Source of the DNA: Trypanosoma brucei
Taxonomy: Eukaryota
NCBI GenBank assembly: GCA_000002445.1
Contig: CP000070.1
Span: 576,001 to 640,000 of the forward strand
Direction of reading: 5' to 3'
DNA: 64,000 bases
Positions 10,045 to 35,756 of this stretch are shown here, one piece after another. A program made the translations under genes and the position numbers. A model generated the notes under the pieces. It was not told the origin of the DNA. It was given only the letters and a program-made list of their open reading frames with translations, and made no database searches. Position 1 is the stretch's first letter. Every line of letters starts with the position of its first letter.

Positions 10045-10045
10045 G

Positions 10046-10086: not shown

Positions 10087-10097
10087 ATGTGTGTGTG
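10045..10097. repeat. (TA)14 followed by (TG)n microsatellite
   Basis: tatatatatatatatatatatatatatgtgtgtgtgtgtgtatgtgtgtgtg in the 1-kb spacer between the SEP-UBX gene and the coiled-coil gene. Confidence 0.95.
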
Positions 10098-10309
10098 ATG
10101 AATATGATCACGTGAAAGTCAGTTCCTTGCTAACACGGTAAAACAAAATGGTGACGTGAAGTAATGAACCATATTGTCGATAACTCCTCGCGTGGCTACT
10201 ACAGCTCTTACTATACCGTTCACACAAAATTTATCCTTCTGAAGTCAAAAATCATAACGACATGTTTCGAACTTACGCAGCCTGTGCTTGGATTGCGTCA
10301 CTTAGTTTC

Positions 10310-11011: not shown

Positions 11012-11652
11012 GCGGAAAAAATAGATAAATATTTGTGAGCTCGTTCCTTGCCGCTGCCAAAATGACTACAGGAAAACAGTTAAAAACTCAGACCTGAGGG
11101 AGGGAGAACGTTATGTATTTAAACACCGACGTAGTGAACATGAACGAAGCAGTTAATTGAGATTACCAATGGTCGGATCGTCACTCCCAAAATCAAAAAA
11201 AAAAAGAGATATGGGATGGGTGGTTTATTTGCTTATTAGTACATCTGGTCTGCAAACGGCCCCTTTTCCATCAGACCGTGTGAAAAAAGACGGGCTTCCT
11301 GGCAAAATCTTGAGGAAGGTCCGTCAAAAGAGAAAAAAGGAAATTCCTCGCAAGGAATTTAATCCATGCGATTGGCAAAAATAAGAAGAAGGAAGACGGT
11401 AATGCACAGTGAAAACTCGGTATTCTTTCTGTTTTGTTTTTCTCTCTTGTGGGAACGCCTGGTAAAATTTAATTATGTGTTTGACAACTCTACACAGAGT
11501 TGCAGCAATGTTTAAAAGTACAAACACACCCATTTTATTCTCTCAAAGTGCCCTTTACCTCCCAGCAAAGGAAGAAACAACTCAAGTGAGTTAACTAATA
11601 ATGAATGGACGTGGGAGAATGATCGCTGCTTTCAGCACTCCAACAATTTACA

Positions 11653-12546: not shown

Positions 12547-13156
12547 CGTTATGGCGAGCGCAGTCGTAGTAAAATTCTTCTTTTTAAGTAGTGATAACAA
12601 CTGTAAATACAGCAAAGGCGAACAAAGGAATAATTAGAAAAACAAAAAGGACTCGAAAAGAGACCCTCAGAGGGAGTACACCTACGAACAAGGAAAACGT
12701 GCACTTCCAAATCAACTAACTTGCTTCACCTGGTTAAAAGTTCGGCTGCACGATAACAAGAATGTACGGAGGGAGAAAGTCACTGTGGTGAAAGAAAAGG
12801 AGGCACAATGAGCATATGCAACGACTCAATTGAAGCAAACAGTATAGGATATATATATATATATATAGTCGGTGAGAACAGATATACAAGCGCGCATGCA
12901 CGAGCACACGCCTATGCCATTTGGGCACTTGACGTTATACACACAGTACAGGAAAATATCGTTAATAAACGGGACATTAAGGAGCAACTTGAAAAAGTCA
13001 GACACCACGAGACAGGAAAGAAAAGAAAAGTGGGGACACCTCGACACTACTGGTGTGTCTTTCACAAAGGCAAAGGTAACAAAAGGAAGAAACCTAACGT
13101 ACAAAAACACGAGGGTTGCTCCACAAGGTCACATAACTTGAAGTCAGTACACTCCA

Positions 13157-13792
13157 TCAGACTGCGAGTAAGGGAAGCATGATTTTACAAAATCCTGAAA
13201 AATTTATCTTACTCTCCCCTTCGTTCAGCAGACCAGCAGCGATACCGTGAGGACTAAGAATTGCTTCGGCCATTCCTTCGCTGATCGCGGCACCAGCAAT
13301 ATGATTACACGCCTCCACGAGGGCACTGCGTGTCATCATATGCCCCGAATCTGCCACACTAGTAAATACGCTGTAAAGGCAGCCCTGCGCCATTCGCTCA
13401 CGCCTTGCGGGTGACGCCCACAAACTATCTAAAACACTGCATACATCCTTCAGCGTTACGTACGACATTTCCGAAAGGGGACGTCCAACTGTCATTAGGA
13501 AGGCATCGCGAATTTCGCGTAAGCTGAGTGCACTTGGTCTCTCCCCCACTTTACCGTCTCCCATTGAATTAGCCGATGGAAACAGTGCGTAGAGTATGGA
13601 AAGTAGGTGCTGACGCGGTATGCGGCCGCTATCATCCTCGTCCCAAGCTATGAAAAGGAGCGAAGCCTGCTGTCTTTTAACCTCATGGAAGGAAAAAGTC
13701 CAGGTAAGAGGAGTTTTCTCTGTTGATTTGGTGGTCTTAACCTTTTTCGCTTTTCCCTTCTTTATTGTACTGTTCACCTTTGCGGTTTTCAT
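13157..13792 (-). CDS. hypothetical protein, possible degenerate EF-hand
   Basis: ATG at 13792 (MKTAKVNSTIKKGKAKK...). The AWDEDDSGRIPRQHLLSIL segment resembles an EF-hand loop, but imperfectly. Lys-rich N-terminus. Confidence 0.4.
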   Translation of the reverse strand: MKTAKVNSTIKKGKAKKVKTTKSTEKTPLTWTFSFHEVKRQQASLLFIAWDEDDSGRIPRQHLLSILYALFPSANSMGDGKVGERPSALSLREIRDAFLMTVGRPLSEMSYVTLKDVCSVLDSLWASPARRERMAQGCLYSVFTSVADSGHMMTRSALVEACNHIAGAAISEGMAEAILSPHGIAAGLLNEGESKINFSGFCKIMLPLLAV

Positions 13793-14575
13793 TGTAGCGT
13801 ACAGACAAGCACACAATCCTTCCCGTCCCCGCTTCCCTCACTAACCGAAGCAACAAAAGCAAATGTCAGATATGAGGGGGAAAAGGTACAACGATGCGAT
13901 TATTCCCATTTTGAAGGAAGTATAATCAAAAAAGCTGCACCGAAACAATGCGACGGCCATACACTAACGCGCATGGATTGCAAGCGCCTCAAAAAGTGGG
14001 CCAAAAAAACACCAGTCGTGATTAAGTTAAATGTAACTGAAGTTTGAGATCCCAAACGGCAATTGCTCTTCCTTTCTATATTCCATTCCTTCACCGCCTG
14101 CTCTCCATCCGGTCATCTTTCCCAGAAGAGCATCCACAAAACGGATCCTTCCACACTCACACACACAAACACAGGCACACAATCCAGCCAACCAAAAAAG
14201 ACGTGATAGACTGCTATTTCCCTTCCTTATCTTTTCCCCCCTTTTTAAACAAAAGTGATTGACGCCGCACCTCTGGTGTCTTTAACTATTATTTTTTCGC
14301 GAACGTTGTTGCAACGCTCGCAATTGGTGCATACACCTGTATTATGTGAGGTACCCCGTTTCCGTCGGTGGCCCCACTGTTGTGACTTTGACCTCTTCGC
14401 ACCCCGCTGAGTGCCAACTGCAACTACTCATCTCCTTTTTTTTTAATCCATGCAGGAACACACCCGCAGCCACTCGGACGAGAGAAGCGGACGACACAAC
14501 CAATGAGTAAATGTCGGTGGCTTGAAAATATACGGAAATTGCAAGTTATTTTAACGGTTTCCGTCACGGCGTGGT

Positions 14576-17500
14576 TCATGACACGAGTCCAGCGGAGCGA
14601 GCTCGAAGCCACGACATCAACAACTGTTGCTCAGCATTGTCAAAAATACCGGCACACGCTTTGGCGGTCGCTGTTGCACAACCCTCACCTCGCCCCGTTG
14701 CCGCCAAAAGGATGCGACCAATAGCCGTAACCTCCAAGGCCCGTGCCACCTCCAGCTCACTTGTGCCCTCCCTCTTTATCTGAAGTAAAACCTCGCCGTC
14801 GTGTTGTTTTGCTCTACGCGCAATTTGCGTAAGAAGATCCTTACGCAATTCCTCCTCCACTAGGCAAACAACTCCTGTTGCAGACATCCAGGCATCTGGC
14901 GACGGTAGCTGCAATAAACGCTGGACCAACTCTGCAGGACCCAATACAACATTCTTCGTATCCGGCATCAAAAATCGCTTTTGTGCAGCTACCACCGCCG
15001 TATCTAGTTCCAAACCGTAATATGACGAGGAATTACCGGATCCAGAAGCAACCCATGCAAGCCTGGACAAAGCCAGGCAACGTGAACGGTGCGTAACTAG
15101 ATCGTCGCCGTAAAGGAAATAAGATGCCGATGATGATGAAGGTAGTCGTGCACCTTCCTCGACTAATGAGTAGAAAGCTTGCGGCCTCATCAACCACAAC
15201 AACTGTGGCGCTTCCTTAGCAAGGAACTCATCGCGCGCAACTGCGCCCGCTTCGTACTGAGGAAGAAGTTCTGGTAAGAGCTGCAATTCCCATTCGCGGC
15301 GTTGGGTCAACAGCGTGCGGAGGGCAACCTCGAATATTTTCGGGTTTCGCTCACAGTATAGGCCGAGCCTATCATACTTGCCGCTAGGTTGCAGTGGGTT
15401 CTCCACTGGCTCAGCAAGGCAAAATGCGGAAACAACATCATCAACTACAAAATCTAACGCGAGTTCTTCGCATAAACGGAGAACACACGCCCCCACAGTC
15501 GTCTCAGTAGGGACCGGTGCGCCAAACGGGTAACCAAGTGGTTCTATCAGGAATGGCTCACGGAAGAGAGTGCTGCGCATGGCACTCGCGAAAAAGGTGG
15601 GACCACCTTCTGAATGGTTACGAAATGTGAAGTGAATGATCACAGCAATGAAATCCAGCAACCGTAGCTGGTCCTGCACAGGTACTAACCAAGACGAAAG
15701 CTCTGACGTATTCATCTTTTCACTTAACGGGTCAGCTGGTGCCGACATAGTTTCCATTTCAGATTTGCTCCACATCAACGAACCTGCCAGTGCATCTGAA
15801 AAGCACTTCGCGGCACTCGACAAGTGAAGCTGAATGCCATAATCACTCGCATCAGAACTTGTCCACATTAATGCTCGCACATTTTGGGGAATGGGACACA
15901 AACTCTCAATATCCTCACGAGACTCATCAATTGCCCGGGCTACAAGAACAAAGACTGATGCGACCGATAAAGCATCGTCGAATTTCGAGCGCCTGTCAAT
16001 CAACACACTGCCCTGAGTTTCATGGAGATTGTCACAAAGTACCTGTAGCAGCTGACTTAGTCGACTTGGGTCCCCAAAGACGATCTCCGCAGAAGTAGCC
16101 TGCGCACACATTGAGTTTGCGCTGGAGAGCTCACTTCGTGCTTGATCTGCAACGCAATTGATAGCTCTCCGCAAAAGCAGTTGGCACCGTTCACGCTCCA
16201 CAGCACTGCGCACCAACCGTCGGTAGTCTTCCACCGAACAACTGTCTCCATTTTGTGATAAGTTAGCCGCGAGCAGGGAGCTGTTGATGTTGTTACTACC
16301 TGCAGAAGCAAGTTGATAGAGTGGTGTCATTACTTCGAACCCCTCCACTGTTGTGGTTGCAGATGATGAACAGTGGGTTGTGTCATTCTGTAGCCGTCTA
16401 ATGGCAACCATTACCAGAAGCGCCTCCTGCATCGATAGGAGTCTGGCAATGGTTTGCGGTTGAAGGCGAAGTGCAATTTCCTTGTGAAGCAGCACAGTCA
16501 GAAGGAAGCGACGGTGTTCTTGCTGCCTCTGCACTACGCTATGGGTTACGTGCATAATAATGTTGTCATCCTCTATATTGAGGTCAGCCCGTGCCCAATT
16601 GCCCTTGTGGGGGGTGCTGTAGAGGCAAATGGCCTCACCCGCGTCCAGAACGGCAGAATCAATGGACATCTTACAGTCGATGCGGAGGCTATCCAGGAGA
16701 TTATTGAGGAGGCGAGTAACGTCATTAAGACCATCACGGCCTCCGGTAAAGCGTGATTGTTTCCATGCATCACTATTTTGTCGTATCCCGCTGCCTCTGC
16801 TGCCTCGGTCGTCGGCGGCCTCTCTAGAATCCTCCGCAGCCTCATGCAGTAACTCATCAGCTCTGGTGTTGGAGACTACTGGTCCGTTGATTCCCATCGT
16901 AACAATATGTCCATCCGGAAGAAGCGCACTCACAATAGGGAATTCAACGTTTCTCAACATGTGCACATCCTCACTGGAACAAGGATTTCGCACACCTAAA
17001 TCATTGTTTAGAAACACACAGCATTGCCCCGAAAGAATGGTTATCATATGCGAAGACTCATCCAAATAGATTTTCGTGTGGTGCAACGGTGCGCTGGCCA
17101 CACTGTGTGCAAGCAGCGCGATAGACTGCATACTGACCACCCGTCGCACAGCGCCCGTGCTCGGCTCCATTGTTACGACTTCCAAACTAGCATCCCAGCG
17201 GCTGCAAGAAAACAGATACACCAGGCAACACAAAGACAACGGAGTTTCGTCAAATGCCACTACGCGCCCTCGCCGCTGTAGCACCGAGGAAATGTTTGTA
17301 ATCCACTTGGCTCGTATACCACCCTCTGCGCTGCCGTTATTTTTCGGGCGTCGTCGTCGCAGAGGGCCAATATCTAGGAGAAAGAACTCCGATGCTGCAT
17401 TTACTGCCCATAGTTGTGTTGGGTGCTCCCCCCGAAATCGCAGCAACGTAAACTCCAGCCTGCTTCCGTCTGCTTCGTCATTGTTACTTTCCCTACTGTC

Positions 17501-18187
17501 CGTTGAGAGCAACCGTTTTGGTAGAAAGGAACTCCACCAAGAACCTCCAGATGACGACGTTGACGTCCGGACAGACACATTACAAGAGGTACGTTCAAAG
17601 CTAATCACGAAGCGCTCACCATCAATTTTAATTGCAACAAATATCGCGCCCGACAACGTACCCACAGCCGTCAGCGTTGCCTGCTGCTCCCTCCTGCAAG
17701 CGAAAGCCGAAACCTTAACGGGTTCATTTTCAGTGCTTACCTGAAACTCGACAGAGTGGTCAAGACTCGACACAACACCGTAATCTGTGCAAAAGGCAAT
17801 TGATTCGTCGTTCGGCCCAAGTTCCGTAACAAACAGTGGAAGACCTTCACTCTCCGTAAAAAAAGGAATATGGGCGACACGAGGGGCAGTGCGGTGCCAA
17901 AAAGGTTTTCGCATATCCCACACACGTAATAGCCGCGTGTTCTCATCAACCATCCAACAACTGTTAGTACCGATGCCGGACAGAAAGATGGAGGGCCGAA
18001 CAGACACACCACCAACACGTATATCGGCTTCAGCAATTGTGACAGGTCGCACCTGACCGACGGGGAAAGGACTAACAGCAGTAACAGATGGAGTTGTGAG
18101 CTGACTGACATCACACCCCAGCTCAGTGCTTCCAAGAGGAGAGCGCTCCGTACGAGCAGCCTTAGCAGGAGGAAGGAAAGCGAACAT
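14576..18187 (-). CDS. large (~1200 aa) protein with predicted N-terminal beta-propeller-like region and long alpha-helical C-terminal region; candidate Nup133/Nup155-class nucleoporin (TbNup132-like)
   Basis: Uninterrupted 3.6-kb minus ORF. First ATG at 18187 (track start 18214 is GTG). The N-terminal ~450 aa is rich in short beta-strand-like segments. The C-terminal ~700 aa is leucine-rich and helical. The size (~132 kDa) and architecture match outer-ring scaffold nucleoporins. The product call comes from architecture and size, not from a motif. Confidence 0.4.
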   Translation of the reverse strand: MFAFLPPAKAARTERSPLGSTELGCDVSQLTTPSVTAVSPFPVGQVRPVTIAEADIRVGGVSVRPSIFLSGIGTNSCWMVDENTRLLRVWDMRKPFWHRTAPRVAHIPFFTESEGLPLFVTELGPNDESIAFCTDYGVVSSLDHSVEFQVSTENEPVKVSAFACRREQQATLTAVGTLSGAIFVAIKIDGERFVISFERTSCNVSVRTSTSSSGGSWWSSFLPKRLLSTDSRESNNDEADGSRLEFTLLRFRGEHPTQLWAVNAASEFFLLDIGPLRRRRPKNNGSAEGGIRAKWITNISSVLQRRGRVVAFDETPLSLCCLVYLFSCSRWDASLEVVTMEPSTGAVRRVVSMQSIALLAHSVASAPLHHTKIYLDESSHMITILSGQCCVFLNNDLGVRNPCSSEDVHMLRNVEFPIVSALLPDGHIVTMGINGPVVSNTRADELLHEAAEDSREAADDRGSRGSGIRQNSDAWKQSRFTGGRDGLNDVTRLLNNLLDSLRIDCKMSIDSAVLDAGEAICLYSTPHKGNWARADLNIEDDNIIMHVTHSVVQRQQEHRRFLLTVLLHKEIALRLQPQTIARLLSMQEALLVMVAIRRLQNDTTHCSSSATTTVEGFEVMTPLYQLASAGSNNINSSLLAANLSQNGDSCSVEDYRRLVRSAVERERCQLLLRRAINCVADQARSELSSANSMCAQATSAEIVFGDPSRLSQLLQVLCDNLHETQGSVLIDRRSKFDDALSVASVFVLVARAIDESREDIESLCPIPQNVRALMWTSSDASDYGIQLHLSSAAKCFSDALAGSLMWSKSEMETMSAPADPLSEKMNTSELSSWLVPVQDQLRLLDFIAVIIHFTFRNHSEGGPTFFASAMRSTLFREPFLIEPLGYPFGAPVPTETTVGACVLRLCEELALDFVVDDVVSAFCLAEPVENPLQPSGKYDRLGLYCERNPKIFEVALRTLLTQRREWELQLLPELLPQYEAGAVARDEFLAKEAPQLLWLMRPQAFYSLVEEGARLPSSSSASYFLYGDDLVTHRSRCLALSRLAWVASGSGNSSSYYGLELDTAVVAAQKRFLMPDTKNVVLGPAELVQRLLQLPSPDAWMSATGVVCLVEEELRKDLLTQIARRAKQHDGEVLLQIKREGTSELEVARALEVTAIGRILLAATGRGEGCATATAKACAGIFDNAEQQLLMSWLRARSAGLVS

Positions 18188-18532
18188 TAAATTACCCAAA
18201 TGGAAGGTAACCACAATTTCTCCCGCTTCAAAGCCGTTTCCTTTATATATATATCTTCAGCTTTAAAACCCACTGAGCACACCTCACTCTCAGTACACTC
18301 TGTTCCCTGAAGCTGTTGCCTCTTCGTGTCCCTCTGTTCTAAACAAATGACTACGATTTCGTCCACAAGCCCGTGTGCTCCCCTGCGTACGAACTGCTCC
18401 ACCAAACCTTAACTTTGTGATTCCCCACGAAAAGCAAAAGCAAAAGTGGTACGAAAAAAAAGAAGAAAAAGAAGGAATACATATATGTAGTAGTTTAGGA
18501 GAGGAAATTATTGTGACATAGTGTGTGTTTAA

Positions 18533-18545
18533 GGGGGGGGGGGGG
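18533..18545. repeat. G13 homopolymer (C13 on coding strand)
   Basis: aagggggggggggggtcgcc. Lies ~350 nt upstream (on the minus strand) of the large Nup-like ORF. Confidence 0.95.
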
Positions 18546-18765
18546 TCGCCGCGACGGGGGCGTGCACGAACGCTGCAGTGGTTAAAACGGGGAAACTTCG
18601 AACAGTGAGCGCTCGAATTGAAGATCTAACACACACTAAACGATTGGTGGTAAAAATATCCCATATCATTCCACCTTTTGGTGGTGACATTTTCAGCCGC
18701 AGCCGGTGTGCTACTTTGTGAACCCTCACCTATGCGTATGTGTGTTCTATCAGCCCGCAATACGT

Positions 18766-20031
18766 CTATCTCTCCTCTGCAGGATCTCGCCCCATTTCCT
18801 GCAGCATACGCTGTAAAGGTGCCAACCACTTTTCATCCATATGACGGTGCAGTAGCATATCCTGCAGTTTGGGTGGATCACTTACAGGGTCGAATGTTGG
18901 CACGTTATCCCACTCCAATGGGCAGCACAACGAACCCGTAGCAGGGTGTACACAAAAGGGTAGCTTCAACAAGTGGTCACGGCGCGTACTCACGTGCTCA
19001 TCCAACCGGGGGTACATGAGTAGAATTTGGGCAGCAGCGATCACATTCGTCGCCGCGTCTCCAAGTGTCCGCAGAACATATGTCCAGTCGAGGATATTCC
19101 CCTCCTCAAATGGTACGTTCCGCAAAAAACGCTGTTCGACATCGCGGCGTGTGCCCATTTTTAGTGCCGAAACAATCGCCTTATAGACAATTCGAGCACC
19201 CTTCGGGTGAGTAACGCGGTTTGGATTTTCCGGAGTAGAGTTGAGAAACAGCGATGTGAAGGCTGGATCAAGTACTGTGGCCTGCACATGTTGGATGGTG
19301 GGATGAATAGGTTTGCCGTTTACAAAGTCTGCCACGACTGCATGCTGTGATGCTTTGGGCACAACAACGGTAAGGTAAGATACAAGAGCTGACCGCTCGT
19401 CATCGTGCATTTTGCACGCACGCTTATCACACACCCAAAGATGAATTCCACGGCGACCAGAGAACACAGGAAACAGATACCGGAACCCAAAATCATCCTC
19501 CAGCACCTTCCGCAACACAGCTGCGGCACACGACATCCACGTCCAGCACCACCGGCATATAGATTTTCCAGTACAACAAGAACGAGAATTGTCGTAGTCG
19601 CTCATATCGATATCAAACACGAGCTCACGCTCCACCGGAACAATTGTCCCCACTTTCTGCTTTTGGTTTGGACGAATGTTGTAGACGGCCCCGACGTCAA
19701 TTTTCTCCGGAAACGAACGGATGAGCTCACGACGAAGTTCCGTTACACTACTGTAACTCCTAAAGCGTGTGAAAATATCTCCCAGTAAAGTGAAACAGAA
19801 TTCGCGGCGCGCCAAATATCCATCTGCACTACTAGTACTTCCCCGGCCCCCTTCAGTAACATCCTCCCCCGTTGATGGCAACACCTTAGGATCGTTACCG
19901 TTTGCAACGCTACCTGGTGGGGAAGAGATGATCTTGTCCGCATGTTGAAGGTTATATGACAACCACTGCACCACAAGGTCTACGGGATATACGAATTCGT
20001 AGAATTCTCGTAGCGATGTTTCGTCTATCAT
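18766..20031 (-). CDS. PRI1: DNA primase small (catalytic) subunit
   Basis: Diagnostic eukaryotic/archaeal PriS motifs: RELVFDIDMSDYD...RSCCTGKSICRWCW (catalytic Asp triad + Zn knuckle) and FSGRRGIHLWVCD. ATG at 20031 (MIDETSLREFYEFVYPVDLV); the track start 20070 is TTG. Confidence 0.88.
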   Translation of the reverse strand: MIDETSLREFYEFVYPVDLVVQWLSYNLQHADKIISSPPGSVANGNDPKVLPSTGEDVTEGGRGSTSSADGYLARREFCFTLLGDIFTRFRSYSSVTELRRELIRSFPEKIDVGAVYNIRPNQKQKVGTIVPVERELVFDIDMSDYDNSRSCCTGKSICRWCWTWMSCAAAVLRKVLEDDFGFRYLFPVFSGRRGIHLWVCDKRACKMHDDERSALVSYLTVVVPKASQHAVVADFVNGKPIHPTIQHVQATVLDPAFTSLFLNSTPENPNRVTHPKGARIVYKAIVSALKMGTRRDVEQRFLRNVPFEEGNILDWTYVLRTLGDAATNVIAAAQILLMYPRLDEHVSTRRDHLLKLPFCVHPATGSLCCPLEWDNVPTFDPVSDPPKLQDMLLHRHMDEKWLAPLQRMLQEMGRDPAEER

Positions 20032-20568
20032 AGCAGAACTTAATATCTTCCCAATTAAGTCTTTAAACAAGCGAGGAGAACAGAAAAAATACCGGTGAGA
20101 AAAAAGGGGAAAGTGACTTTATTTTTTGTTTTTCACTCCAAAATCCGTGCGTCACCGACCTACAATGGAACGTTCCACGAGCAAAGAGGAAAGTACGGCT
20201 GACACAATTTTTTTAAAGGGTGCAAGCAAAAACAAGGCACCGTCCGAAACAGGAGGTAAGGGGAAAGTACCGCACCGCTACGAAGAAACACGTTAAATGG
20301 AAACTTCGTGAACACGCAAATAATAGCACAAGTGATTCGGATAAAGGTACATAGGAATACAGGTTATACATTCGGGTTGTGTGGTACGTAGGGAAACACA
20401 AAAAAAGATCTAAAAAGATAATGGGGATACTTGAGCATGCCAACACACCGCTCCCTCGTGCGCACCCCCCCCCTCCCTAATCCCGTTTTCTTTAGTCTTG
20501 TTCCACAGGGACACTTCATCCCCTCACCCCTTCGGTGGCGAACAAACGTTAGTGTGACACATCGCGTA

Positions 20569-22386
20569 TCACTTGACACGACTGCAACCCTCGTGTGATT
20601 TCTGCCGCATGTTGCTCGCATCATTCAGAACATCGTTTACCAATGTTTTACGATATTTGCTCCATTTCCGTTGTCTCTCGTAGTGGATCTCAATGTCTTC
20701 ACGGGATGGATATCCATTGGCAAACTCCTTCAACTGGGCATACTCACGCGCACCAAAGAGTTCCCTGCAACGATCGTAAGGTAACATGTAAAAAACACAT
20801 GGGCATCTTGTGTACACACTCGCCTGTCGCCCCATTGTAGGCTGTGGAAACATAGAAAATTTATTGGTTGGTTCTAAACCGAGGGCGAATGATGTAGGAT
20901 CTCCTTCGATCCCCCTTGGTGATGGTGATCCACTGGAAAGAGGTTGCAACACTTTCTGCAACGGCAACTCCCCATCTAAGGGTGCATAATCGGTCGGCGC
21001 ATCCTTTGCAGCAGCAAGTGTGTTTCGCCAGTAGGCCTCAGACCGGATTTTCTCTACGTCAGGTTTCCTATCAACCTCATGACTAAGTAACCCCAATTCC
21101 CCAAAGAATTCACCCTCGCGCAACGTGGCGACCTCCACAAATTTCATAGTCTGCGATGGCAAATTGTGTTGTTGGCCGCGTGGTACTGACGAGGGAAAGT
21201 GGCCAAACGATGTCACCGATTCATTGAGTTGGCGTGACTGCCTCGCTTTTGCACCAGTAGAGGGAAAACAGGTAACACTGCCCTCATGCACTCGTCTACC
21301 GTAGCGCGCGCGACCACGTGGTAGTGGTACATTACGAACAACTACGCATTGCCCCTCTTTTATAAAGTACATAGCATCCGATTCCATATCCTGCTCAACT
21401 ACCATTTGTCGCCAGGATACACGCAGCGGCACAAGTGCACGGGCACATCTTTCGTATTCTTGCGGTGTCCAGTGCGTTAAAACTTTCACACGAAGATGCT
21501 GCTGCAGAAAGGTGGTCTGTTCTTGCACCAGGCGCTTGTCCAGACGTTTGAGCACTCCGTCCATCACGTATTCCTTGTTCCTTGGGAAGCAAAGAAGTAC
21601 GCAATCTGAACATGTTTGGTAGTAGGCATCCTCCGGTAGAGCTGCTAGTGTCGTCGGAAGACCAAACATCTCGTACGGTTCGACAAGTGCATCCATTGGG
21701 CATTTAAACGGGAGGCGCAGTAAAACATTACCACGTAGTAAAACGTAAACGTACCTCGCCATATCATGCCTCGCGCTACTTTTCGAAGGAGAACAACTAC
21801 TGTCATCCCGTCCCTGCTCTGATGCTTCTTGCGCGCTAGTTACCTCCCTCTCTGCTTTTGGTGCCAAGTCCACATCAGAACTCCAGCCGGCGGTTGTGGC
21901 AGTGTCCTCATTTACCACCAACGAGTAGCGGTCAATGTAATCCATCGTTTCTACGTTTGCCTCGGTTTTCCGAGGTTGGTTCCCCGCAAGCACCACACCA
22001 TCACCCACGTGTGCTATTCGCATCGTTGAGGACATGGTCTCTAAGTCTCTTAACGAAAGATCCTTTAGTCTCGGAATCCGCCGCAGCATATTGACGGCAA
22101 GTTCTTTGCTAGAGTCTGTGCGGTACACAAAAGGATGCTCAAGACTGCGTTCCACAGCCATCCACAACTCACGTTCCTGACGCTCCTGTTGAGAAATGCG
22201 CTCCATCGTGTTGCATGCCTTGGGTTTGGCACGTCTTGCCCCCGCAGTCGCAACTCCTGGAATTAATGGAAATTGGGTTCCTTCTGCCGCCGCAAGCGCA
22301 CCATTGCATGCTCTTTTCTCCGCATTTTCCAATGCCTCATTCAATATACGCCTCTCGGCTGGTGTGAGCTGATTGACGATGCTCAT
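20569..22386 (-). CDS. cyclic-nucleotide-binding (CNB) domain-containing protein, no catalytic domain recognised
   Basis: 605 aa with an ATG start. CNB-fold signature: YFIKEGQCVVV ... (long insert) ... EGEFFGELGLLSHE ... TRCPCVFYMLPYDRCRELFG, matching the FGE[LI]AL(L) phosphate-binding cassette. No kinase, PDE or channel domain is evident. Confidence 0.6.
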   Translation of the reverse strand: MSIVNQLTPAERRILNEALENAEKRACNGALAAAEGTQFPLIPGVATAGARRAKPKACNTMERISQQERQERELWMAVERSLEHPFVYRTDSSKELAVNMLRRIPRLKDLSLRDLETMSSTMRIAHVGDGVVLAGNQPRKTEANVETMDYIDRYSLVVNEDTATTAGWSSDVDLAPKAEREVTSAQEASEQGRDDSSCSPSKSSARHDMARYVYVLLRGNVLLRLPFKCPMDALVEPYEMFGLPTTLAALPEDAYYQTCSDCVLLCFPRNKEYVMDGVLKRLDKRLVQEQTTFLQQHLRVKVLTHWTPQEYERCARALVPLRVSWRQMVVEQDMESDAMYFIKEGQCVVVRNVPLPRGRARYGRRVHEGSVTCFPSTGAKARQSRQLNESVTSFGHFPSSVPRGQQHNLPSQTMKFVEVATLREGEFFGELGLLSHEVDRKPDVEKIRSEAYWRNTLAAAKDAPTDYAPLDGELPLQKVLQPLSSGSPSPRGIEGDPTSFALGLEPTNKFSMFPQPTMGRQASVYTRCPCVFYMLPYDRCRELFGAREYAQLKEFANGYPSREDIEIHYERQRKWSKYRKTLVNDVLNDASNMRQKSHEGCSRVK

Positions 22387-23447: not shown

Positions 23448-26400
23448 TCAGCGGTTACGGATAACCCATCTCTCCAACACACAACCACACGTAAATGAAG
23501 CAACATCAACCCGCATATTCGGAGTACCACGACGTTTTTCTAAATCATTTACCGGACGGGAAACAAAACGCTTCAGCAACCGTTTGAACCGCCTATCCTC
23601 CTCCTGCAATAAAAGAATCCGCTCATCCTCCTCCACGTCCATAAGACTACAGGAAAAAGAACCAGAAGCGTCAACTCCTTCTCCTGCGCGTAAGCCGTCA
23701 TTTTGCAAAGAAGTTCCAGCACCATATGTATTGAAGGCACCAAGTGCAAGTCCCCTCCTGTCACTATCAAATCCAGAATATAGCACATCACCAGCTTTAT
23801 CACCGAAGGTAGATTCTGCAGTTTCACCAGCACTAAAAGGTCGCAACGAGTCAACTCCTTCTCCTGCGCGTAAGCCGTCATTTTGCAAAGAAGTTCCAGC
23901 ACCATATGTATTGAAGGCACCAAGTGCAAGTCCCCTCCTCTCACTATCAAATCCAGAATATGGCACATCACCAGCTTTATCACCGAAGGTAGATTCCGTA
24001 CTTTCACCAGCACTAAAAGTTATCAACGTTTCAGCAAAAAAATACAACCCTTTAGGGTCCTGTGTTTCAGTTGTGGTGGCATTATCCATAGATATCGCAA
24101 GCATGTCATCAGTGAATTGATCATGGAGATCAAATGCACAATCATCATATGCACACACAATATCTTTGCGGGAGGCGTCCTCTTCACCTTCAATAGCAGA
24201 AGCACATAATGCAAACCGCTCACGGCATTCATCACCTTGCAATCCTTCACGGTCCTGTGTTTCAGTTGTGGTGACATTATCCATAGATATTGCAAGCATG
24301 TCATCAGTAAATTGATCATGGAGATCAAATGCACAATCATCATATGCACACACAATATCTTTGCGGGAGGCGTCCTCTTCACCTTCAATAGCAGAAGCAC
24401 ATAATGCAAACCGCTCACGGCATTCATCACCTTGCAATCCTTCACGGTCCTGTGTTTCAGTTGTGGTGACATTATCCATAGATATCGCAAGCATGTCATC
24501 AGTGAATTGATCATGGAGATCAAATGCACAATCATCATATGCACAGACAATATCTTTGCGGGAGGCGTCCTCTTCACCTTCAATAGCAGAAGCACATAAT
24601 GCAAACCGCTCACGGCATTCATCACCTTGCAATCCTTCACGGTCCTGTGTTTCAGTTGCGGTGACATTATCCATAGATATTGCAAGCATGTCATCAGTGA
24701 ATTGATCATGGAGATCAAATGCACAATCATCATATGCACACACAATATCTTTGCGGGAGGCGTCCTCTTCACCTTCAATAGCAGAAGCACATAATGCAAA
24801 CCGCTCACGGCATTCATCACCTTGCAATCCTTCACGGTCCTGTGTTTCAGTCGTGGTGACATTATCCATAGATATTGCAAGCATGTCATCAGTGAATTGA
24901 TCATGGAGATCAAATGCACAATCATCATATGCACACACAATATCTTTGCGGGAGGCGTCCTCTTCACCTTCAATAGCAGAAGCACATAATGCAAACCGCT
25001 CACGGCATTCATCACCTTGCAATCCTTCACGGTCCTGTGTTTCAGTTGTGGTGGCATTATCCATAGATATTGCAAGCATGTCATCAGTGAATTGATCATG
25101 GAGATCAAATGCACAATCAACTTTTGTAGATGTACTGCGTATACGTGTTTCGTTGGATTTGTTATTTGTTTCCGCTGAGTTATTTTTTGTGCTGTTTTCA
25201 TTGTCTTTATCCGATATGCCTTGATGATTGTTTTCTTTGATTTCGTGTGAATATTCGTCTTTTTTTTTCTCTTCTATTTTTTTTTGTATTTTTTCTTTAT
25301 TTGCATCTTCGTAAATTTCTTCTTTTTGTGTTTTATTTGTGTTTCGTAGTATGTTGAACATGGCGTTTACCTCGTTTTCCATTATCTTATCCCTCTCGTG
25401 CTCCTCCCTGCATATTATTCTTTGCTTGTAGTTTTTCCTTTGTTCATGTGTGTTTATGATCCCCTCTCGTTCTGTTGTCTTTATTTTTTCTGGCTCTTCA
25501 TCGTCTGCCTTTATGTGTCGTTTAGTTGGTGATTGCGTTGAAGCCATGTCCTGTGTTTCGTTGAGCGTCGTTGGTGTGGAGTGTGACACTTTGTCGTTTT
25601 TCCATAAAATATTTATGAGTTCGTATATTTCTTGATCCATCGCCTCATCCAAGTCGGAGTCCCAAGAGTTCCATAGAAGGAGACTCTCATTGGTGTTAGA
25701 TTTTCTAACTGGATATTTTTCAGTTGGATGTCCTTTCTCATCTATTTCCTCTTTCTTTATTCGTGCAGCGTTTAACATTTTTAGTGCCAATCTCATCCTT
25801 GTTTGTAATTTATGGATTGCAATGGCGTGTTCAAGATACATTCGTTGACGTTGTGCTGACTCTTGTATACGCAGCTTTTCAGTTTGTAGCGGATACGCGT
25901 AACTAATCCATTCACCTGGGTTTATTTCCACCGCTGGTTCCTCCTCGTCGCTACACTCGCCGCCATCAACCTTCCTCGTGAGGTTGCGCCTATCGACGCT
26001 TTCCTTGCTAACTATCAAGTTGCGTCTCTCCTCCTCCTTCTCGATTACAGCATGTACATTTTGTAGTGCTAACCACATCTTTTCTTCTGCATCTAACCGC
26101 TGCTGATAAGCTTTAACCTGAAGCACTCTATGTGTCATCATTTTTTGAATTAGAGCGGAATACGCTTCCATTTCTTCTATGTGGAGTTCATGCCGTGCAA
26201 TGTCCTCATCGTGCTGAACCCTCCAACATGGGGGGTCAGTTGATACTTCACGCCGGCTCCTCTCTACACTACCCTTCAGGTCATCTGTGACGATGTGAGC
26301 AATTATATCAGCAGCCGGAGAAAGCGCAGGACTCTTAGAATGGCCTCGCCCCCTGGGCACAGACACTGTGTCGCCGCTGAACAGAATAGAACCGAAGCGA

Positions 26401-26747
26401 CCGATAGAGGTTGTTGCACTCATTGGGTGAGCACGTGCTGCTTTGAACCCCTGTCCAACCTGCCCACCATAAGAACGATGGAAGGCGGAGTTAAGCCTAA
26501 TGGGAGAAGGAGGGTTCTTTTCATAATACCGCGATGCAGACCGCGTGTCAACATCTTCCCACATCCCCACAGTACTGGTGCGAGAGACGCGATCTTGTGG
26601 AGCGGAAGGGGGTGGGGATGACGTGAAGCTGGCTACGGTTTTGCTCTCCAAACTATCCCTTCTAGTCGCCGCACGCTTGAGGAGCCCTGCAGCCCGCGCT
26701 AAACCTCCACGGCGTCTCGATGGCGCATCCGTATTTCGCGATCTCAT
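23448..26747 (-). CDS. large repeat-containing protein (N-terminal coiled-coil region; 5.5 x 65-aa acidic Cys-containing repeats; 2 x 60-aa Gly/Ser-rich repeats)
   Basis: 3.3-kb ORF. ATG at 26747 (track start 26765 is TTG). Internal 195-nt and 180-nt tandem repeats are in frame. Artefactual ORFs are open in the other frames and strand across the array because the period is a multiple of 3. Confidence 0.7.
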   Translation of the reverse strand: MRSRNTDAPSRRRGGLARAAGLLKRAATRRDSLESKTVASFTSSPPPSAPQDRVSRTSTVGMWEDVDTRSASRYYEKNPPSPIRLNSAFHRSYGGQVGQGFKAARAHPMSATTSIGRFGSILFSGDTVSVPRGRGHSKSPALSPAADIIAHIVTDDLKGSVERSRREVSTDPPCWRVQHDEDIARHELHIEEMEAYSALIQKMMTHRVLQVKAYQQRLDAEEKMWLALQNVHAVIEKEEERRNLIVSKESVDRRNLTRKVDGGECSDEEEPAVEINPGEWISYAYPLQTEKLRIQESAQRQRMYLEHAIAIHKLQTRMRLALKMLNAARIKKEEIDEKGHPTEKYPVRKSNTNESLLLWNSWDSDLDEAMDQEIYELINILWKNDKVSHSTPTTLNETQDMASTQSPTKRHIKADDEEPEKIKTTEREGIINTHEQRKNYKQRIICREEHERDKIMENEVNAMFNILRNTNKTQKEEIYEDANKEKIQKKIEEKKKDEYSHEIKENNHQGISDKDNENSTKNNSAETNNKSNETRIRSTSTKVDCAFDLHDQFTDDMLAISMDNATTTETQDREGLQGDECRERFALCASAIEGEEDASRKDIVCAYDDCAFDLHDQFTDDMLAISMDNVTTTETQDREGLQGDECRERFALCASAIEGEEDASRKDIVCAYDDCAFDLHDQFTDDMLAISMDNVTATETQDREGLQGDECRERFALCASAIEGEEDASRKDIVCAYDDCAFDLHDQFTDDMLAISMDNVTTTETQDREGLQGDECRERFALCASAIEGEEDASRKDIVCAYDDCAFDLHDQFTDDMLAISMDNVTTTETQDREGLQGDECRERFALCASAIEGEEDASRKDIVCAYDDCAFDLHDQFTDDMLAISMDNATTTETQDPKGLYFFAETLITFSAGESTESTFGDKAGDVPYSGFDSERRGLALGAFNTYGAGTSLQNDGLRAGEGVDSLRPFSAGETAESTFGDKAGDVLYSGFDSDRRGLALGAFNTYGAGTSLQNDGLRAGEGVDASGSFSCSLMDVEEDERILLLQEEDRRFKRLLKRFVSRPVNDLEKRRGTPNMRVDVASFTCGCVLERWVIRNR
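23668..24030 (-). repeat. tandem repeat, period 180 bp, 2 copies (coding: FSAGE(S/T)(T/A)ESTFGDKAGDV(P/L)YSGFDS(E/D)RRGLALGAFNTYGAGTSLQNDGLRAGEGVD...)
   Basis: tcaactccttctcctgcgcgtaagccgtcattttgcaaagaagttccagcacc at 23671 and 23851. Near-identical over ~180 bp. Confidence 0.9.
24055..25129 (-). repeat. tandem repeat array, period 195 bp, ~5.5 copies, >97% identical (coding: DDCAFDLHDQFTDDMLAISMDNVTTTETQDREGLQGDECRERFALCASAIEGEEDASRKDIVCAY)
   Basis: The repeat anchor tcctgtgtttcag recurs at 24058, 24253, 24448, 24643, 24838 and 25033. Copies differ by only a few SNPs (gtggtggc/gtggtgac, atatcgc/atattgc, cacacaat/cagacaat). Confidence 0.95.
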
Positions 26748-28088
26748 CAGAAGATGCGCTGGCAACTAACGAAATGCGGTAGTTGTGGAAACACACCCAC
26801 GTACTTGGTAACCGTGATAGGCGTTCAGTCTTGTGCAGATGAGTGACTAATATATATATATTAGACAGGAAACTTGAAGGTAGATGTGCTCCTGGCACCT
26901 TCACACTGAGGGCAACTCAAATGACTAAATTCTTCTTTGTCACCGCTGCTGCTTCCTGTGAATACCTGGTGTCTTAAGGCAACCAGCGTTGCACGTAAGT
27001 GAAACTTCTTCCAATTGCTTTCCGTGTCTCTTTACAGCGATATTGCGTCGCTCGTTATAATACCTAAAGTCACCTCTGCACCACGGAATAACACTCACCA
27101 ACGCATAAGACGTTGATAAGGGAGGGGGAAAGCCTGGCACTTGTCGCACTTTCACGCCGCAGCGTATTGACCTGTGTCCGCAACAGGTGGGTTCGGCTCC
27201 TATTAAGCGCTCAAAGAAGAACTTCCAGGTAAACGAACGCGTCTACAAAAGTGCGCACGAAGACGGTGATACTGTCACGAAAAAAACAGAAAGAGAGAAG
27301 ATTCACACCTCCACTCCACCAAAAATGAGTGGAGAATTCAAACTCCCTTTTACTTAATGCCCTTTTGGTGTGTTTTATACCACCACAGAAGCAGCACCAG
27401 TCACAGGTTCGTGCGAATTTGCCCGGCCCCAACTGCCTTCCGTCGTGCACACACTACCAGGGGGTTAGACAAACTCCGTCAACCTAAAAACAAAAACAAA
27501 ACAAGTGCCAATAAATGTGTATATATGTATAACTAATAACACAATCACACTTAACCTCCCCCTCCCTGGCTATCGGCCAAATTTTCTTATTTCTCTTTTT
27601 TCTTACCTACCTGGAATGTGGGTTAAGAGTTTTTATTACAAAATATTCTTTCTTTTATTTATCCCTGTTTGTTGTCAGGTTTTTAATCCGCTGTACCCCG
27701 TTATCAGCCCACCTGTCGTCCTTTCCTAAATCCCTTTCCTCACTTAATTCAGAGAAACAGCTGCACGGAAAGTGCTTTGAATAAAATGATCCAGTAAATA
27801 CGTCCCACCAATAAGCCTTTGTTGAGATACAGCACCTAATGTACATTTAAAAAAAAACAGAAAAGAAAGGCGAGGAAAAAAGAAAACGAACATCCAAACC
27901 AAATTCAATATCAACAAGCAGACATAACACGGAATAAGATGTCAAAACAGCAGGGACTCCCCCCCTCATACCAACCAAAAAAAATGGAGTGCTTTCACAA
28001 GCAATAAAAAAAAAGAAAGAAAGAACATAACTAAACTTAGTGTTCTTGATCGAAGGGAAGGCAACACAATACCACAAAATGATGCATC

Positions 28089-28612
28089 GGCAGGCGTGAA
28101 ACAAGACCAAACAAGTCATGGATTGCATCCCATTCAACTCTCCATGCTTCACTACTTGAGGGGAATGAAACGAGAAGAGTGAGTCGCACCAAAACCGGGG
28201 CGGCCGTGAGCGACAGGTTTGTACGTCAGCGAGAACTCTCCAAGATAATGGCCAATCATCTCACCCTTGATCTCCACCGCATTAAACTGGCGACCATTGT
28301 AGATTCCCACAACAGAACCCACCATCTCAGGCGTGATCACAACATCACGAAGGTGTGTCTTCACAGCTTTCGGTTTCTCACCGGCCTTCACGTTCTTCTT
28401 CGCCTCACGCAGGCGCTTCAAAAGCACAGGGGCGCGACGGTCCGCGTGGCGGTTCATGCGTCTACGGGCGCGAGCATGCACAAGTGCCTTGAACTCCTCC
28501 TCAGTGAGCGCAAGTAGTGGGTCGATTTCGTGGCCACGGTACGTGAATTTGTGGAAGGTACGCTCCTTCTTCAGCTGTTCGTACCGCTCCTGTGTAATGT
28601 TCGACGCCATCG
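28089..28612 (-). repeat. dispersed direct duplication unit A (RPS15 CDS + ~60 nt 3' flank), identical to 35233-35756
   Basis: Nucleotide identity runs from ~60 nt downstream of the stop codon (acaagaccaaacaagtcatggattgc...) through the CDS to 3 nt past the ATG, then ends abruptly. Confidence 0.9.
28152..28610 (-). CDS. RPS15: 40S ribosomal protein S15 (uS19), copy 1
   Basis: 152 aa. The C-terminal [22 protein letters not shown] and central [35 protein letters not shown] are hallmark uS19/S15 sequence. ATG start confirmed. Confidence 0.95.
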
Positions 28613-28642
28613 CCTTCTCTCCGTCTACACGATATTAATTAT

Positions 28643-35232: not shown

Positions 35233-35756
35233 GAAAATAAAAACAAGACCAAACAAGTCATGGATTGCATCCCATTCAACTCTCCATGCTTCACTACTTG
35301 AGGGGAATGAAACGAGAAGAGTGAGTCGCACCAAAACCGGGGCGGCCGTGAGCGACAGGTTTGTACGTCAGCGAGAACTCTCCAAGATAATGGCCAATCA
35401 TCTCACCCTTGATCTCCACCGCATTAAACTGGCGACCATTGTAGATTCCCACAACAGAACCCACCATCTCAGGCGTGATCACAACATCACGAAGGTGTGT
35501 CTTCACAGCTTTCGGTTTCTCACCGGCCTTCACGTTCTTCTTCGCCTCACGCAGGCGCTTCAAAAGCACAGGGGCGCGACGGTCCGCGTGGCGGTTCATG
35601 CGTCTACGGGCGCGAGCATGCACAAGTGCCTTGAACTCCTCCTCAGTGAGCGCAAGTAGTGGGTCGATTTCGTGGCCACGGTACGTGAATTTGTGGAAGG
35701 TACGCTCCTTCTTCAGCTGTTCGTACCGCTCCTGTGTAATGTTCGACGCCATCGCT
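35233..35756 (-). repeat. dispersed direct duplication unit B (RPS15 CDS + 3' flank), identical to 28089-28612
   Basis: See unit A. The 5' flanks diverge completely immediately upstream of the ATG (cgccttctctccg vs cgcttcttgccta). Confidence 0.9.
35294..35752 (-). CDS. RPS15: 40S ribosomal protein S15 (uS19), copy 2
   Basis: Nucleotide-identical to copy 1 over the CDS. The track ORF extends 20 codons upstream (to 35812), but the conserved MASNITQ ATG at 35752 matches copy 1, and sequence 5' of it is unrelated. Confidence 0.95.

What the first reader, a model, noticed from the sequence alone, without database searches (positions are those of the whole stretch)
24055..25129. Near-perfect 195-bp x 5.5 tandem array encoding a 65-aa acidic, Cys-bearing repeat in a 1100-aa protein
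The six repeat units differ by only a handful of SNPs. Such nucleotide-level homogeneity indicates very recent expansion or concerted evolution. The unit (DDCAFDLHDQFTDDMLAISMDNVTTTETQDREGLQGDECRERFALCASAIEGEEDASRKDIVCAY) is acidic and has 3 Cys per unit. It does not match any trypanosome repeat antigen I can recall. In trypanosomatids, large proteins with long perfect repeats are frequently cytoskeletal or flagellar components, or immunodominant B-cell antigens. Copy number is likely polymorphic between strains and is at risk of mis-assembly.
Basis: seen in the sequence. Interest (0 to 1): 0.6.

Follow-up and report, generated by a model that had tools for sequence, protein, structure and literature searches.

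The report
Collapsed acidic repeat array in Tb927.7.2330
The repeat is real and translated, but it lies in an already annotated Trypanosoma brucei nuclear-pore/nuclear-envelope protein (Tb927.7.2330) whose array is known to be badly under-assembled in this reference genome; other assemblies hold more than 50 copies.

Summary
A 195-bp x 5.5 array (98% identical, no indels) lies in frame in a 1099-aa minus-strand gene. The unit has 4 Cys, not 3.

The window is T. brucei TREU927 chromosome 7 and the gene is Tb927.7.2330 (Pfam DUF1663). Published work already covers three points:
- The array is a figured example of "extreme repeat collapsing" in TREU927 compared with the long-read Lister 427 assembly.
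- The protein localises to the nuclear envelope/pores (TrypTag).
- It is found in both Mex67 pulldown and Mex67 BioID.

New here:
- T. b. equiperdum carries at least 54 units. Syntenic T. cruzi carries at least 51 units, and T. rangeli at least 3, of the same 195-bp period.
- The T. brucei unit aligns without gaps to the T. cruzi and T. rangeli units (20% identity; 0 of 5000 shuffles reach the score). Within each array the units are 97-100% identical.
- So the array is old and kept uniform by concerted evolution. It is not a recent expansion.
- The N-terminal helical domain and a ~65-aa C-terminal tail are conserved. The Cys residues are not.

Most likely reading: a very long, acidic, largely disordered spacer in a Trypanosoma-specific protein associated with the nuclear pore complex (NPC). 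Its function is untested. Interest is low to moderate.

The parts
23448..26747 (-). Complete CDS of Tb927.7.2330 (1099 aa plus stop; 123.84 kDa as assembled)
   Evidence: ORF. First in-frame ATG is at offset 18. 100% identical to XP_845856/Q57XP1. The computed mass of 123.84 kDa equals the value listed for Tb927.7.2330 in PMC9791439. The neighbouring gene at 20569..22386 is bounded exactly by the published CARP11/Tb927.7.2320 primers.
26238..26747 (-). N-terminal ~170 aa: basic (pI 11.1), predicted disordered
   Evidence: Composition. AlphaFold2 pLDDT is below 50 for residues 1-170.
25233..26228 (-). Conserved helical region (aa 174-505). The Pfam DUF1663 match covers aa 180-403. It includes the invariant motif KEEERRN-IV-KE--DRR.
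   Evidence: Pfam PF07909, 54.9 bits against a cutoff of 25. Alignment A1 with five Trypanosoma orthologues. AlphaFold2 gives four long helices (174-260, 277-337, 352-386, 433-505) with pLDDT up to 95, but pTM is only 0.20.
24144..25118 (-). Five full 195-bp / 65-aa acidic repeat units
   Evidence: 6 SNPs in 975 bp. Unit charge -13, 4 Cys.
24057..24143 (-). Partial sixth unit (29 aa), after which the sequence departs from the repeat
23670..24019 (-). Second array, 180 bp x 1.9 (60-aa unit ...FSAGE-AESTFGDKAGDV-YSGFDS-RRGLALGAFNTYGAGTSLQNDGLRAGEGVD)
   Evidence: The two copies are 97% identical here but 87% identical in DAL972.
23451..23645 (-). Conserved C-terminal tail (~65 aa) ending ...LERWVIRNR-stop
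   Evidence: 38% identity to the T. theileri tail, E = 9e-11, both ending at the stop codon. The T. cruzi tail ends ...LERWVVRNR* directly after its repeats.

Best explanation
The array is the coding tandem repeat of Tb927.7.2330. This is a single-copy gene found only in Trypanosoma, and its product is reported at the nuclear envelope and nuclear pore complexes (NPCs).

Shown here:
- The array is real, in frame and translated.
- The 5.5 copies in this reference are very probably a collapsed version of a much longer array. At least 54 units, about 10.4 kb, are present in a T. b. equiperdum long-read assembly.
- The gene layout is conserved between T. brucei and T. cruzi: a disordered basic N-terminus, long DUF1663 helices, an acidic 65-aa array, and a ~65-aa tail ending LERWV(I/V)RNR.
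- Units are 97-100% identical within a genome but only about 20% identical between T. brucei and T. cruzi, with the period held at exactly 65 aa. That is concerted evolution of an old array.

Inferred at the DNA level: unequal exchange or gene conversion between units homogenises the array. Selection keeps the reading frame, the period and the acidity, but not the exact sequence or the Cys residues.

Inferred at the protein level: the conserved N-terminal helices and the C-terminal tail are the interaction or anchoring modules. The array is a very long polyanionic spacer or multivalent platform, mostly disordered with one short helix per unit. With 54 units the protein would be about 4,200 aa, about 470 kDa, with a net charge near -700. 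It would sit at the NPC periphery, close to the Mex67 mRNA-export pathway.
For: Identity of the gene.

The array is real, and the error in this reference is collapse:
- Independent assemblies all contain the array, and most break at it.
- DAL972 has 9.5 and 15.5 units in two gene copies flanking a 100-N gap. The flanks of the two copies are 99.7-99.8% identical.
- T. b. equiperdum IVM-t1 has 54 units ending in a 100-N gap.
- The T. equiperdum OVI protein model stops exactly where the array begins.
- PMC8445201 Fig. [quoted passage not shown]

Translation:
- The ORF stays open through both arrays.
- The C-terminal tail beyond the array is conserved in T. theileri (E = 9e-11) and T. cruzi.
- The published 3 peptides with 11.8% coverage can only be reached if at least one repeat-derived peptide was detected. 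All 2753 three-peptide combinations that reach that coverage include one.

Age of the array and concerted evolution:
- T. cruzi has a 195-bp array of at least 51 copies in the syntenic gene.
- T. rangeli has 195 bp x 3.0, running to the contig end.
- The T. cruzi and T. rangeli units are 33/65 identical.
- The T. brucei unit aligns without gaps, at the same rotation, to both. Combined z = 5.7, and 0 of 5000 shuffles reach the score.
- Four positions per unit are fixed differently in TREU927 than in gambiense and equiperdum.

Restriction to Trypanosoma: an exhaustive HMMER search of 1.84 billion representative proteins gave 5 hits, four named as Trypanosoma species and the fifth an unnamed archive entry. 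All five pass the DUF1663 cutoff.

Localisation and partners (published, not tested here):
- Nuclear envelope/pores by TrypTag, and class A in both Mex67 pulldown and Mex67 BioID.
- One peptide in a NUP-1 co-IP.
- Yeast two-hybrid (Y2H) prey of SF3a60.

Disorder: the AlphaFold2 model of 3 units has pLDDT 39.5, with one 16-residue helix per unit.
Against: - No experiment addresses what the array does. The spacer/platform role is inferred from composition, a low-confidence single-sequence model and localisation.
- The true TREU927 copy number is unknown. The strain could genuinely have fewer units than Lister 427 or equiperdum, and the authors of PMC8445201 admit this possibility.
- The equiperdum array is from a noisy long-read assembly (2% indels) and ends in a gap.
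- BLASTP with composition adjustment does not find the T. brucei versus T. cruzi unit similarity significant (E = 0.27). Homology rests on the shuffle test, the identical period and synteny.
- T. theileri has 29-31-aa repeats instead, so the 65-aa period is not universal.
- The two sheets of PMC9791439 do not agree on localisation: one says 'NE', the other 'nuclear pores'.
Confidence: 0.75

Rival explanations
1. The array is an assembly artefact: a short or single-copy segment was spuriously duplicated in the reference.
For: Near-identical units can in principle arise from assembler errors. The DAL972 scaffold does contain a suspicious duplication of the whole gene around a 100-N gap.
Against: The same array is found in four independent T. 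brucei-group assemblies, always with at least as many copies as here. A homologous array of the same period is found in T. cruzi and T. rangeli. Long-read data published for Lister 427 show more repeats, not fewer. Units carry individual SNPs.
Confidence: 0.02
2. The array is a recent, T. brucei-specific expansion of a sequence with no constraint: a neutral coding minisatellite whose protein product does not matter.
For: The units are almost identical. The unit sequence has diverged to about 20% identity between species, and Cys>Arg variants segregate within arrays. Copy number varies widely between assemblies.
Against: The period of exactly 195 bp is retained in T. cruzi and T. rangeli, and the units are homologous. 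The frame is kept open over at least 10 kb so that a conserved C-terminal tail is translated. Acidity is conserved (-13 versus -10 per unit). Three of the four fixed differences between TREU927 and gambiense are synonymous.
Confidence: 0.1
3. The repeat is mainly an immunodominant B-cell epitope array or a cytoskeletal/flagellar structural repeat.
For: Many trypanosomatid proteins with long near-perfect repeats are seroreactive or cytoskeletal (general knowledge; not tested here).
Against: Published localisation is nuclear envelope/pores, with Mex67 proximity and co-purification. No paper in the searchable library prints these unit sequences or lists the gene among antigens. Antigenicity would not exclude the nuclear-pore role.
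Confidence: 0.08
4. Each unit is a Cys/His metal-binding or redox module (C-x7-C-x18-C-x4-C-x4-H across the unit boundary).
For: Each T. brucei unit has four Cys and one His at fixed spacing.
Against: The homologous T. cruzi unit has 1 Cys and the T. rangeli unit has 2. Only one of them aligns with a T. brucei Cys. The first Cys is replaced by Arg in about a quarter of units in the gambiense and equiperdum arrays. AlphaFold2 gives no compact fold.
Confidence: 0.04

Closest known systems
[quoted passage not shown]
   Same: It is this gene: 100% protein identity, same mass, same neighbours. Three things are already published: the difference in repeat-array length versus Lister 427 (PMC8445201 Fig. 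2E), NE/NPC localisation with Mex67 pulldown and BioID (PMC9791439), and Y2H with SF3a60 (PMC3961280).
   Different: Nothing differs at the sequence level. Several points were not found in the papers searched: the at least 54-copy array in T. b. equiperdum, the conservation of the 65-aa period and unit homology in T. cruzi and T. rangeli, the conserved C-terminal tail, and the non-conservation of the Cys residues.
T. cruzi / T. rangeli DUF1663 proteins (e.g. PWU88332.1, PWU86626.1, RNE97957.1), on which Pfam PF07909 appears to be built
   Same: They are syntenic orthologues lying between the RPS15 and CARP11 genes. They share the N-terminal helical domain, a 65-aa acidic array with a homologous unit, and (in T. 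cruzi) the same C-terminal tail.
   Different: N-terminal identity is only 23-31%, and unit identity about 20%. The T. cruzi unit is rich in Ala/Glu/Arg and has 1 Cys. All gene models are truncated or frameshifted at the array.
NUP-1 (Tb927.2.4230), the trypanosome lamina-like protein
   Same: Both are large, lineage-specific proteins of the nuclear periphery built largely of long near-perfect tandem repeats (PMC3313915; my own knowledge for the repeat details). Tb927.7.2330 appears weakly (1 peptide, rank 105) in a NUP-1 co-IP.
   Different: There is no detectable sequence relationship: the exhaustive N-terminal search found only DUF1663 proteins. NUP-1 repeats are coiled coil, whereas this unit is very acidic and predicted mostly non-helical. 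This protein is linked to pores and Mex67 rather than to the lamina network.
FG-repeat nucleoporins
   Same: Both are NPC-associated repetitive, disordered regions that are recovered with Mex67.
   Different: There are only 3 FG dipeptides in 1099 aa, and none in the 65-aa unit. The array is strongly negatively charged, unlike typical FG domains.

Membership tests
Tb927.7.2330 (identity with an annotated gene) | Identical protein sequence and chromosomal neighbours | tested here: met
   100% identity to XP_845856/AAZ12297. Mass of 123.84 kDa matches the published table. The published CARP11 (Tb927.7.2320) primers match the two ends of the adjacent ORF exactly. DUF1663 is listed for Tb927.7.2330.
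Pfam PF07909 (DUF1663) | Score above the curated gathering threshold | tested here: met
   54.9 bits against a cutoff of 25, E = 8.9e-15, covering model positions 152-379 of 514. All five homologues also pass.
Pfam PF07909 (DUF1663) | Orthology by conserved gene order with the T. cruzi members | tested here: met
   The order RPS15 - acetyltransferase - 1019/1048-aa gene - RPS15 - DUF1663 gene holds in T. brucei, T. theileri, T. cruzi and T. rangeli. CARP11, the primase and a Nup132-sized gene follow downstream where the contig extends that far: T. brucei, T. theileri and T. cruzi L008.
Arrays under concerted evolution | Units more alike within a genome than between genomes, with array-wide lineage-specific substitutions | tested here: met
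   Units are 97-100% identical within arrays, against 51% (T. cruzi-T. rangeli) and 20% (T. brucei-T. cruzi) between species. Four positions per unit are fixed differently in TREU927 and gambiense/equiperdum.
FG-repeat nucleoporins | Many FG/GLFG/FxFG motifs in a low-charge disordered domain | tested here: not met
   3 FG dipeptides in the whole protein, none in the 65-aa unit. Unit charge is -13.
NUP-1-like coiled-coil lamina proteins | Repeat units that form a continuous coiled coil | tested here: inconclusive
   The single-sequence AlphaFold2 model of 3 units has pLDDT 39.5 and one 16-residue helix per 65 aa, which is too low in confidence to decide. Long helices occur in the N-terminal domain, not in the array.
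NUP-1-like coiled-coil lamina proteins | Localisation at the nuclear periphery | not testable with these tools
   Literature only: NE/nuclear pores by TrypTag, as cited in PMC9791439.
Trypanosomatid tandem-repeat B-cell antigens | Recognition of the repeat by infection sera | not testable with these tools
   No paper in the searchable library prints the unit peptides.
Cys/His metal-binding repeat modules | Ligand residues conserved across orthologous units | tested here: not met
   Cys count per unit is 4 (T. brucei), 1 (T. cruzi) and 2 (T. rangeli), with only one aligned T. brucei/T. rangeli position. A Cys>Arg polymorphism occurs in about 25% of gambiense/equiperdum units.

The most novel reading that the evidence does not exclude
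Tb927.7.2330 may really be a giant polyanionic filament of about 470 kDa or more, with at least 3,500 acidic repeat residues and a net charge near -700. It would be anchored at the trypanosome nuclear pore by its conserved helical N-terminus and C-terminal tail. In this reading it is a lineage-specific peripheral NPC element that takes part in Mex67-dependent mRNA export, for example by capturing or releasing basic export factors or ribonucleoprotein (RNP) proteins, and array length would be functionally tuned. Because the reference models it as 124 kDa, it would have been missed as a major NPC component.
Probability: 0.15. Interest if true: 0.6.

Novelty: already known. Interest (0 to 1): 0.3.

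Why it matters
There are three practical consequences. First, the TREU927 reference model of this gene (124 kDa, 5.5 units) is probably several-fold too short. That distorts proteomic quantification, the expected size on gels, and the design of RNAi or tagging experiments. Second, the locus breaks assemblies systematically across Trypanosoma genomes, so the 'partial' or frameshifted DUF1663 gene models are artefacts. Third, the 65-aa period has been kept for a very long time while the sequence turned over almost completely, and the protein is found near Mex67 at the pore. This makes it a reasonable, still uncharacterised candidate for a trypanosome-specific peripheral NPC component. None of this is surprising for a trypanosomatid repeat protein, and the main facts are already published.

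Tried and rejected
- Word-indexed protein searches gave very little. The full-length query returned only itself, probably because repeat words saturated the candidate list. The N-terminal query returned only T. theileri. The C-terminal 202 aa returned nothing.
- PDB sequence searches found nothing, with either the protein or the profile. A Foldseek search of the N-terminal model against the PDB gave 0 matches. That model has pTM 0.20, so no fold assignment is possible.
- BLASTP of three T. brucei units against three T. cruzi units was not significant (E = 0.27). Homology was instead supported by gapless circular alignment with shuffles.
- Supplementary Table S2 of PMC8445201 (the exact size ratio) and the TrypTag supplements do not hold the gene ID in the stored text. 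The supplements of the 2026 Mex67-paralogue paper are not held.
- Searches for accession numbers, for older or other-strain gene IDs, and for the unit peptides found no further papers.
- Rfam and tRNA scans of the whole window were empty.
- The Zn-binding idea (C-x7-C-x18-C-x4-C-x4-H) was rejected because the Cys residues are not conserved.
- The DAL972 'second DUF1663 gene' (1687 aa) was considered as a true tandem paralogue. I judge it more likely a scaffolding artefact: there is a 100-N gap between the copies, the flanks are 99.7-99.8% identical, and the second copy has a 1-bp frameshift.
Full report
**1. The observation**

Tandem Repeats Finder reports an array at window 24045..25119 with period 195 bp, 5.5 copies, 98% matches, no indels and score 2073. 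It lies inside a minus-strand ORF at 23448..26765. Read from the first ATG (26747), the ORF encodes 1099 aa.

In the coding frame there are five full 65-aa units (25118..24144) and a 29-aa partial sixth unit. The five full units differ at only 6 nucleotides, 4 of them synonymous.

Two details need correcting or adding:
- The unit has four Cys, not three. Its net charge is about -13 and its pI 4.05.
- A second array, 180 bp x 1.9 (60-aa unit), follows at 23670..24019.

The other open frames over the repeat, 24023..25201 (-) and 23584..24120 (+), are by-products of the periodicity.

**2. Identity of the gene**

All long ORFs in the window are on one strand, as in a trypanosomatid polycistronic unit.

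- The protein is 100% identical to T. brucei brucei TREU927 XP_845856/AAZ12297/Q57XP1, on a 2.2-Mb contig.
- It matches Pfam DUF1663 at 54.9 bits against a cutoff of 25.
- The next ORF downstream (20569..22386, 605 aa, cNMP-binding) is bounded exactly by the published cloning primers for CARP11 = Tb927.7.2320 = Tb427_070027800.
- A 1212-aa ORF further on fits TbNup132 = Tb927.7.2300.
- The computed mass of 123.84 kDa equals the value given for Tb927.7.2330, 'Protein of unknown function (DUF1663)', in two proteomic tables.

The gene is therefore Tb927.7.2330, which is Tb427_070027900 in Lister 427.

**3. What is already published**

- PMC8445201 (Fig. [quoted passage not shown] It is among the genes whose long-read Lister 427 model is more than twice the TREU927 size. 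The authors attribute this to 'extreme repeat collapsing' in the Sanger-based TREU927 assembly, while admitting that a true strain difference is possible.
- PMC9791439 lists the protein as nuclear envelope/nuclear pores (TrypTag). It is one of only 15 proteins common to Mex67 affinity capture and Mex67 TurboID, and is class A in both.
- It was a Y2H prey of SF3a60.
- It appears weakly (1 unique peptide, rank 105) in a NUP-1 co-IP.

None of the five papers that mention the gene assigns it a function, and no other papers were found.

**4. Copy number in other assemblies**

| Assembly | What it shows |
|---|---|
| T. b. gambiense DAL972 | Two gene copies around a 100-N gap: 9.5 units, then a copy with 15.5 units and a 1-bp frameshift. 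Flanks 99.7-99.8% identical, which suggests a scaffolding artefact of one long array or of two alleles |
| T. b. equiperdum IVM-t1 (indel-noisy, apparently long-read assembly) | 54 units over 10.4 kb, ending in a 100-N gap, so 54 is a lower bound. Indel noise explains the truncated 866-aa model |
| T. equiperdum OVI | The 546-aa model stops exactly where the array begins |

The array is therefore real. With 54 units the protein would be about 4,200 aa, about 470 kDa, with a net charge near -700.

**5. Translation**

- The ORF is open through both arrays.
- The ~65-aa tail beyond the arrays is conserved in T. theileri (38% identity, E = 9e-11, both ending ...ERW(V/I)(I/V)RNR-stop) and in T. cruzi (...LERWVVRNR*). 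That conservation is only meaningful if the array is read in frame.
- The published identification (3 peptides, 11.8% coverage) needs at least one peptide from a repeat. Of the 2753 three-peptide combinations that give that coverage, none lacks one.

**6. Family and layout**

An exhaustive HMMER search of 1.84 billion representative proteins with the 543-aa N-terminal part found five proteins. Four are named as Trypanosoma species (T. congolense, T. cruzi, T. theileri, T. rangeli). The fifth is an unnamed sequence-archive entry, probably T. vivax. All five pass the DUF1663 threshold. The Pfam model is evidently built on T. cruzi sequences, since a T. cruzi protein scores 957 bits.

Gene order around the locus is conserved in T. 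theileri, T. cruzi and T. rangeli.

The alignment shows an invariant KEEERRN-IV-KE--DRR core. AlphaFold2 run with this alignment predicts:
- a disordered N-terminal 170 aa;
- four long helices (174-260, 277-337, 352-386, 433-505) with pLDDT up to 95;
- no compact fold (pTM 0.20).

There are no PDB relatives by sequence, profile or Foldseek.

**7. The repeat is old and evolves in concert**

- The syntenic T. cruzi gene carries a 195-bp array of at least 51 copies (97% matches), running to the contig end.
- T. rangeli has 195 bp x 3.0 (100% identical), running to the contig end.
- The T. cruzi and T. rangeli units are 33/65 identical.
- The T. brucei unit aligns without gaps over all 65 positions, at the same rotation, to each of them (13 and 12 identities). 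The z-scores are 4.4 and 3.8 individually and 5.7 combined, and 0 of 5000 shuffles reach the combined score.
- BLASTP with composition adjustment is not significant (E = 0.27). Homology therefore rests on the shuffle test together with the identical period, position and synteny.
- Within T. brucei, four positions per unit are fixed differently in TREU927 than in gambiense and equiperdum.
- T. theileri has 29-31-aa acidic repeats instead, in a gene broken by gaps.

Units are near-identical within a genome and very different between species. This is the signature of concerted evolution of an ancestral array, not of a very recent expansion.

Across species the array keeps its period, its frame and its acidity (-13 versus -10 per unit). 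The Cys residues are not kept: there are 4, 1 and 2 per unit in the three species, and a Cys>Arg variant occurs in about a quarter of gambiense/equiperdum units. This rejects a conserved metal-binding or disulfide role.

A single-sequence AlphaFold2 model of three units has low confidence (pLDDT 39.5). It shows one 16-residue helix per unit and coil elsewhere.

**8. Mechanism I commit to**

Shown: this is a real, translated coding array that is under-represented in the reference. It sits between a conserved helical N-terminal domain and a conserved C-terminal tail, and it is homogenised by concerted evolution.

Inferred: unequal exchange or gene conversion between units drives the homogenisation and the length variation. 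The protein is a very long polyanionic, largely disordered spacer or multivalent platform at the NPC/NE periphery. The conserved ends act as the anchoring or interaction modules, close to the Mex67 export route.

I put about 0.9 on the identity, collapse and concerted-evolution part. I put about 0.5 on the spacer/platform role, for 0.75 overall as stated.

Rivals, scored individually in the report sections:
- assembly duplication artefact;
- unconstrained recent minisatellite;
- antigen or cytoskeletal repeat;
- Cys-based metal module.

**9. Comparison with known systems, and verdict**

This is not a new entity. It is Tb927.7.2330, a member of DUF1663, and its repeat collapse, localisation and Mex67 association are published.

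It resembles NUP-1 in being a lineage-specific nuclear-periphery protein made of long near-perfect repeats. However, there is no detectable homology, and the unit is acidic and not demonstrably coiled coil. It is not an FG nucleoporin: it has 3 FG dipeptides in total and none in the unit.

Two findings appear to be additions, as far as the searchable literature shows. One is the deep conservation of the 65-aa period and of the C-terminal tail. The other is the array sizes of 50 units or more. Both are incremental.

Novelty: already known. Interest: 0.3. The most novel reading still open is a giant polyanionic peripheral NPC element working with Mex67. I give it a probability of about 0.15 and an interest of 0.6 if true.

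Noticed in passing
The two copies are 97% identical in TREU927 but only 87% identical in T. b. gambiense, so they are homogenised differently between strains.
   Followed up: partly
window 28099..28613 and 35241..35755: The two RPS15 (Pfam Ribosomal_S19) genes share an exactly identical 515-bp block covering the CDS, while their flanks are unrelated (~27% identity). This looks like gene conversion limited to the coding region. The duplicated arrangement is conserved in T. cruzi, T. theileri and T. rangeli.
   Followed up: partly
window 45912..50238: A 4.3-kb ORF-free, AT-rich stretch (25-37% GC against ~47% elsewhere) with several (AT)n microsatellites. It lies immediately downstream, on the coding strand, of a protein kinase gene (50238..51779). 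It is probably an unusually long 3' UTR or intergenic region. There are no Rfam or tRNA hits.
   Followed up: partly
L003 (T. b. gambiense DAL972 chr 7) 10001..20065: The annotation shows two tandem DUF1663 genes (1359 aa and 1687 aa) separated by a 100-N gap. The second copy's ORF begins at Met62 and has a 1-bp frameshift in its 15.5-unit array. The flanks are 99.7-99.8% identical between copies. This is likely a scaffolding artefact of one long array or of two alleles, not a real paralogue.
   Followed up: yes
L004 22070..22169; L005 11780..13514; L006 end; L007 end: Every non-reference assembly examined breaks at this array, by scaffold gap or contig end: T. b. equiperdum, T. theileri, T. 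cruzi and T. rangeli. The 'partial', truncated and frameshifted DUF1663 gene models in the databases are therefore assembly artefacts.
   Followed up: yes
window 14576..18214 (-): A 1212-aa ORF with no Pfam hit, consistent with TbNup132 (Tb927.7.2300), lies three genes downstream of this NPC-associated protein gene in the same transcription unit. The proximity is probably coincidental.
   Followed up: no
window 24023..25201 (-) and 23584..24120 (+): Long out-of-frame ORFs (392 aa and 178 aa) run across the repeats. They exist only because the unit lacks stop codons in those frames, and they are not evidence of genes.
   Followed up: yes
window 37867..40797 (-): A 976-aa protein carries four recently defined Pfam domains of unknown function (DUF7760, DUF7761, DUF7762, DUF7759) and a long Lys/Glu-rich low-complexity insert. 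It is uncharacterised.
   Followed up: no
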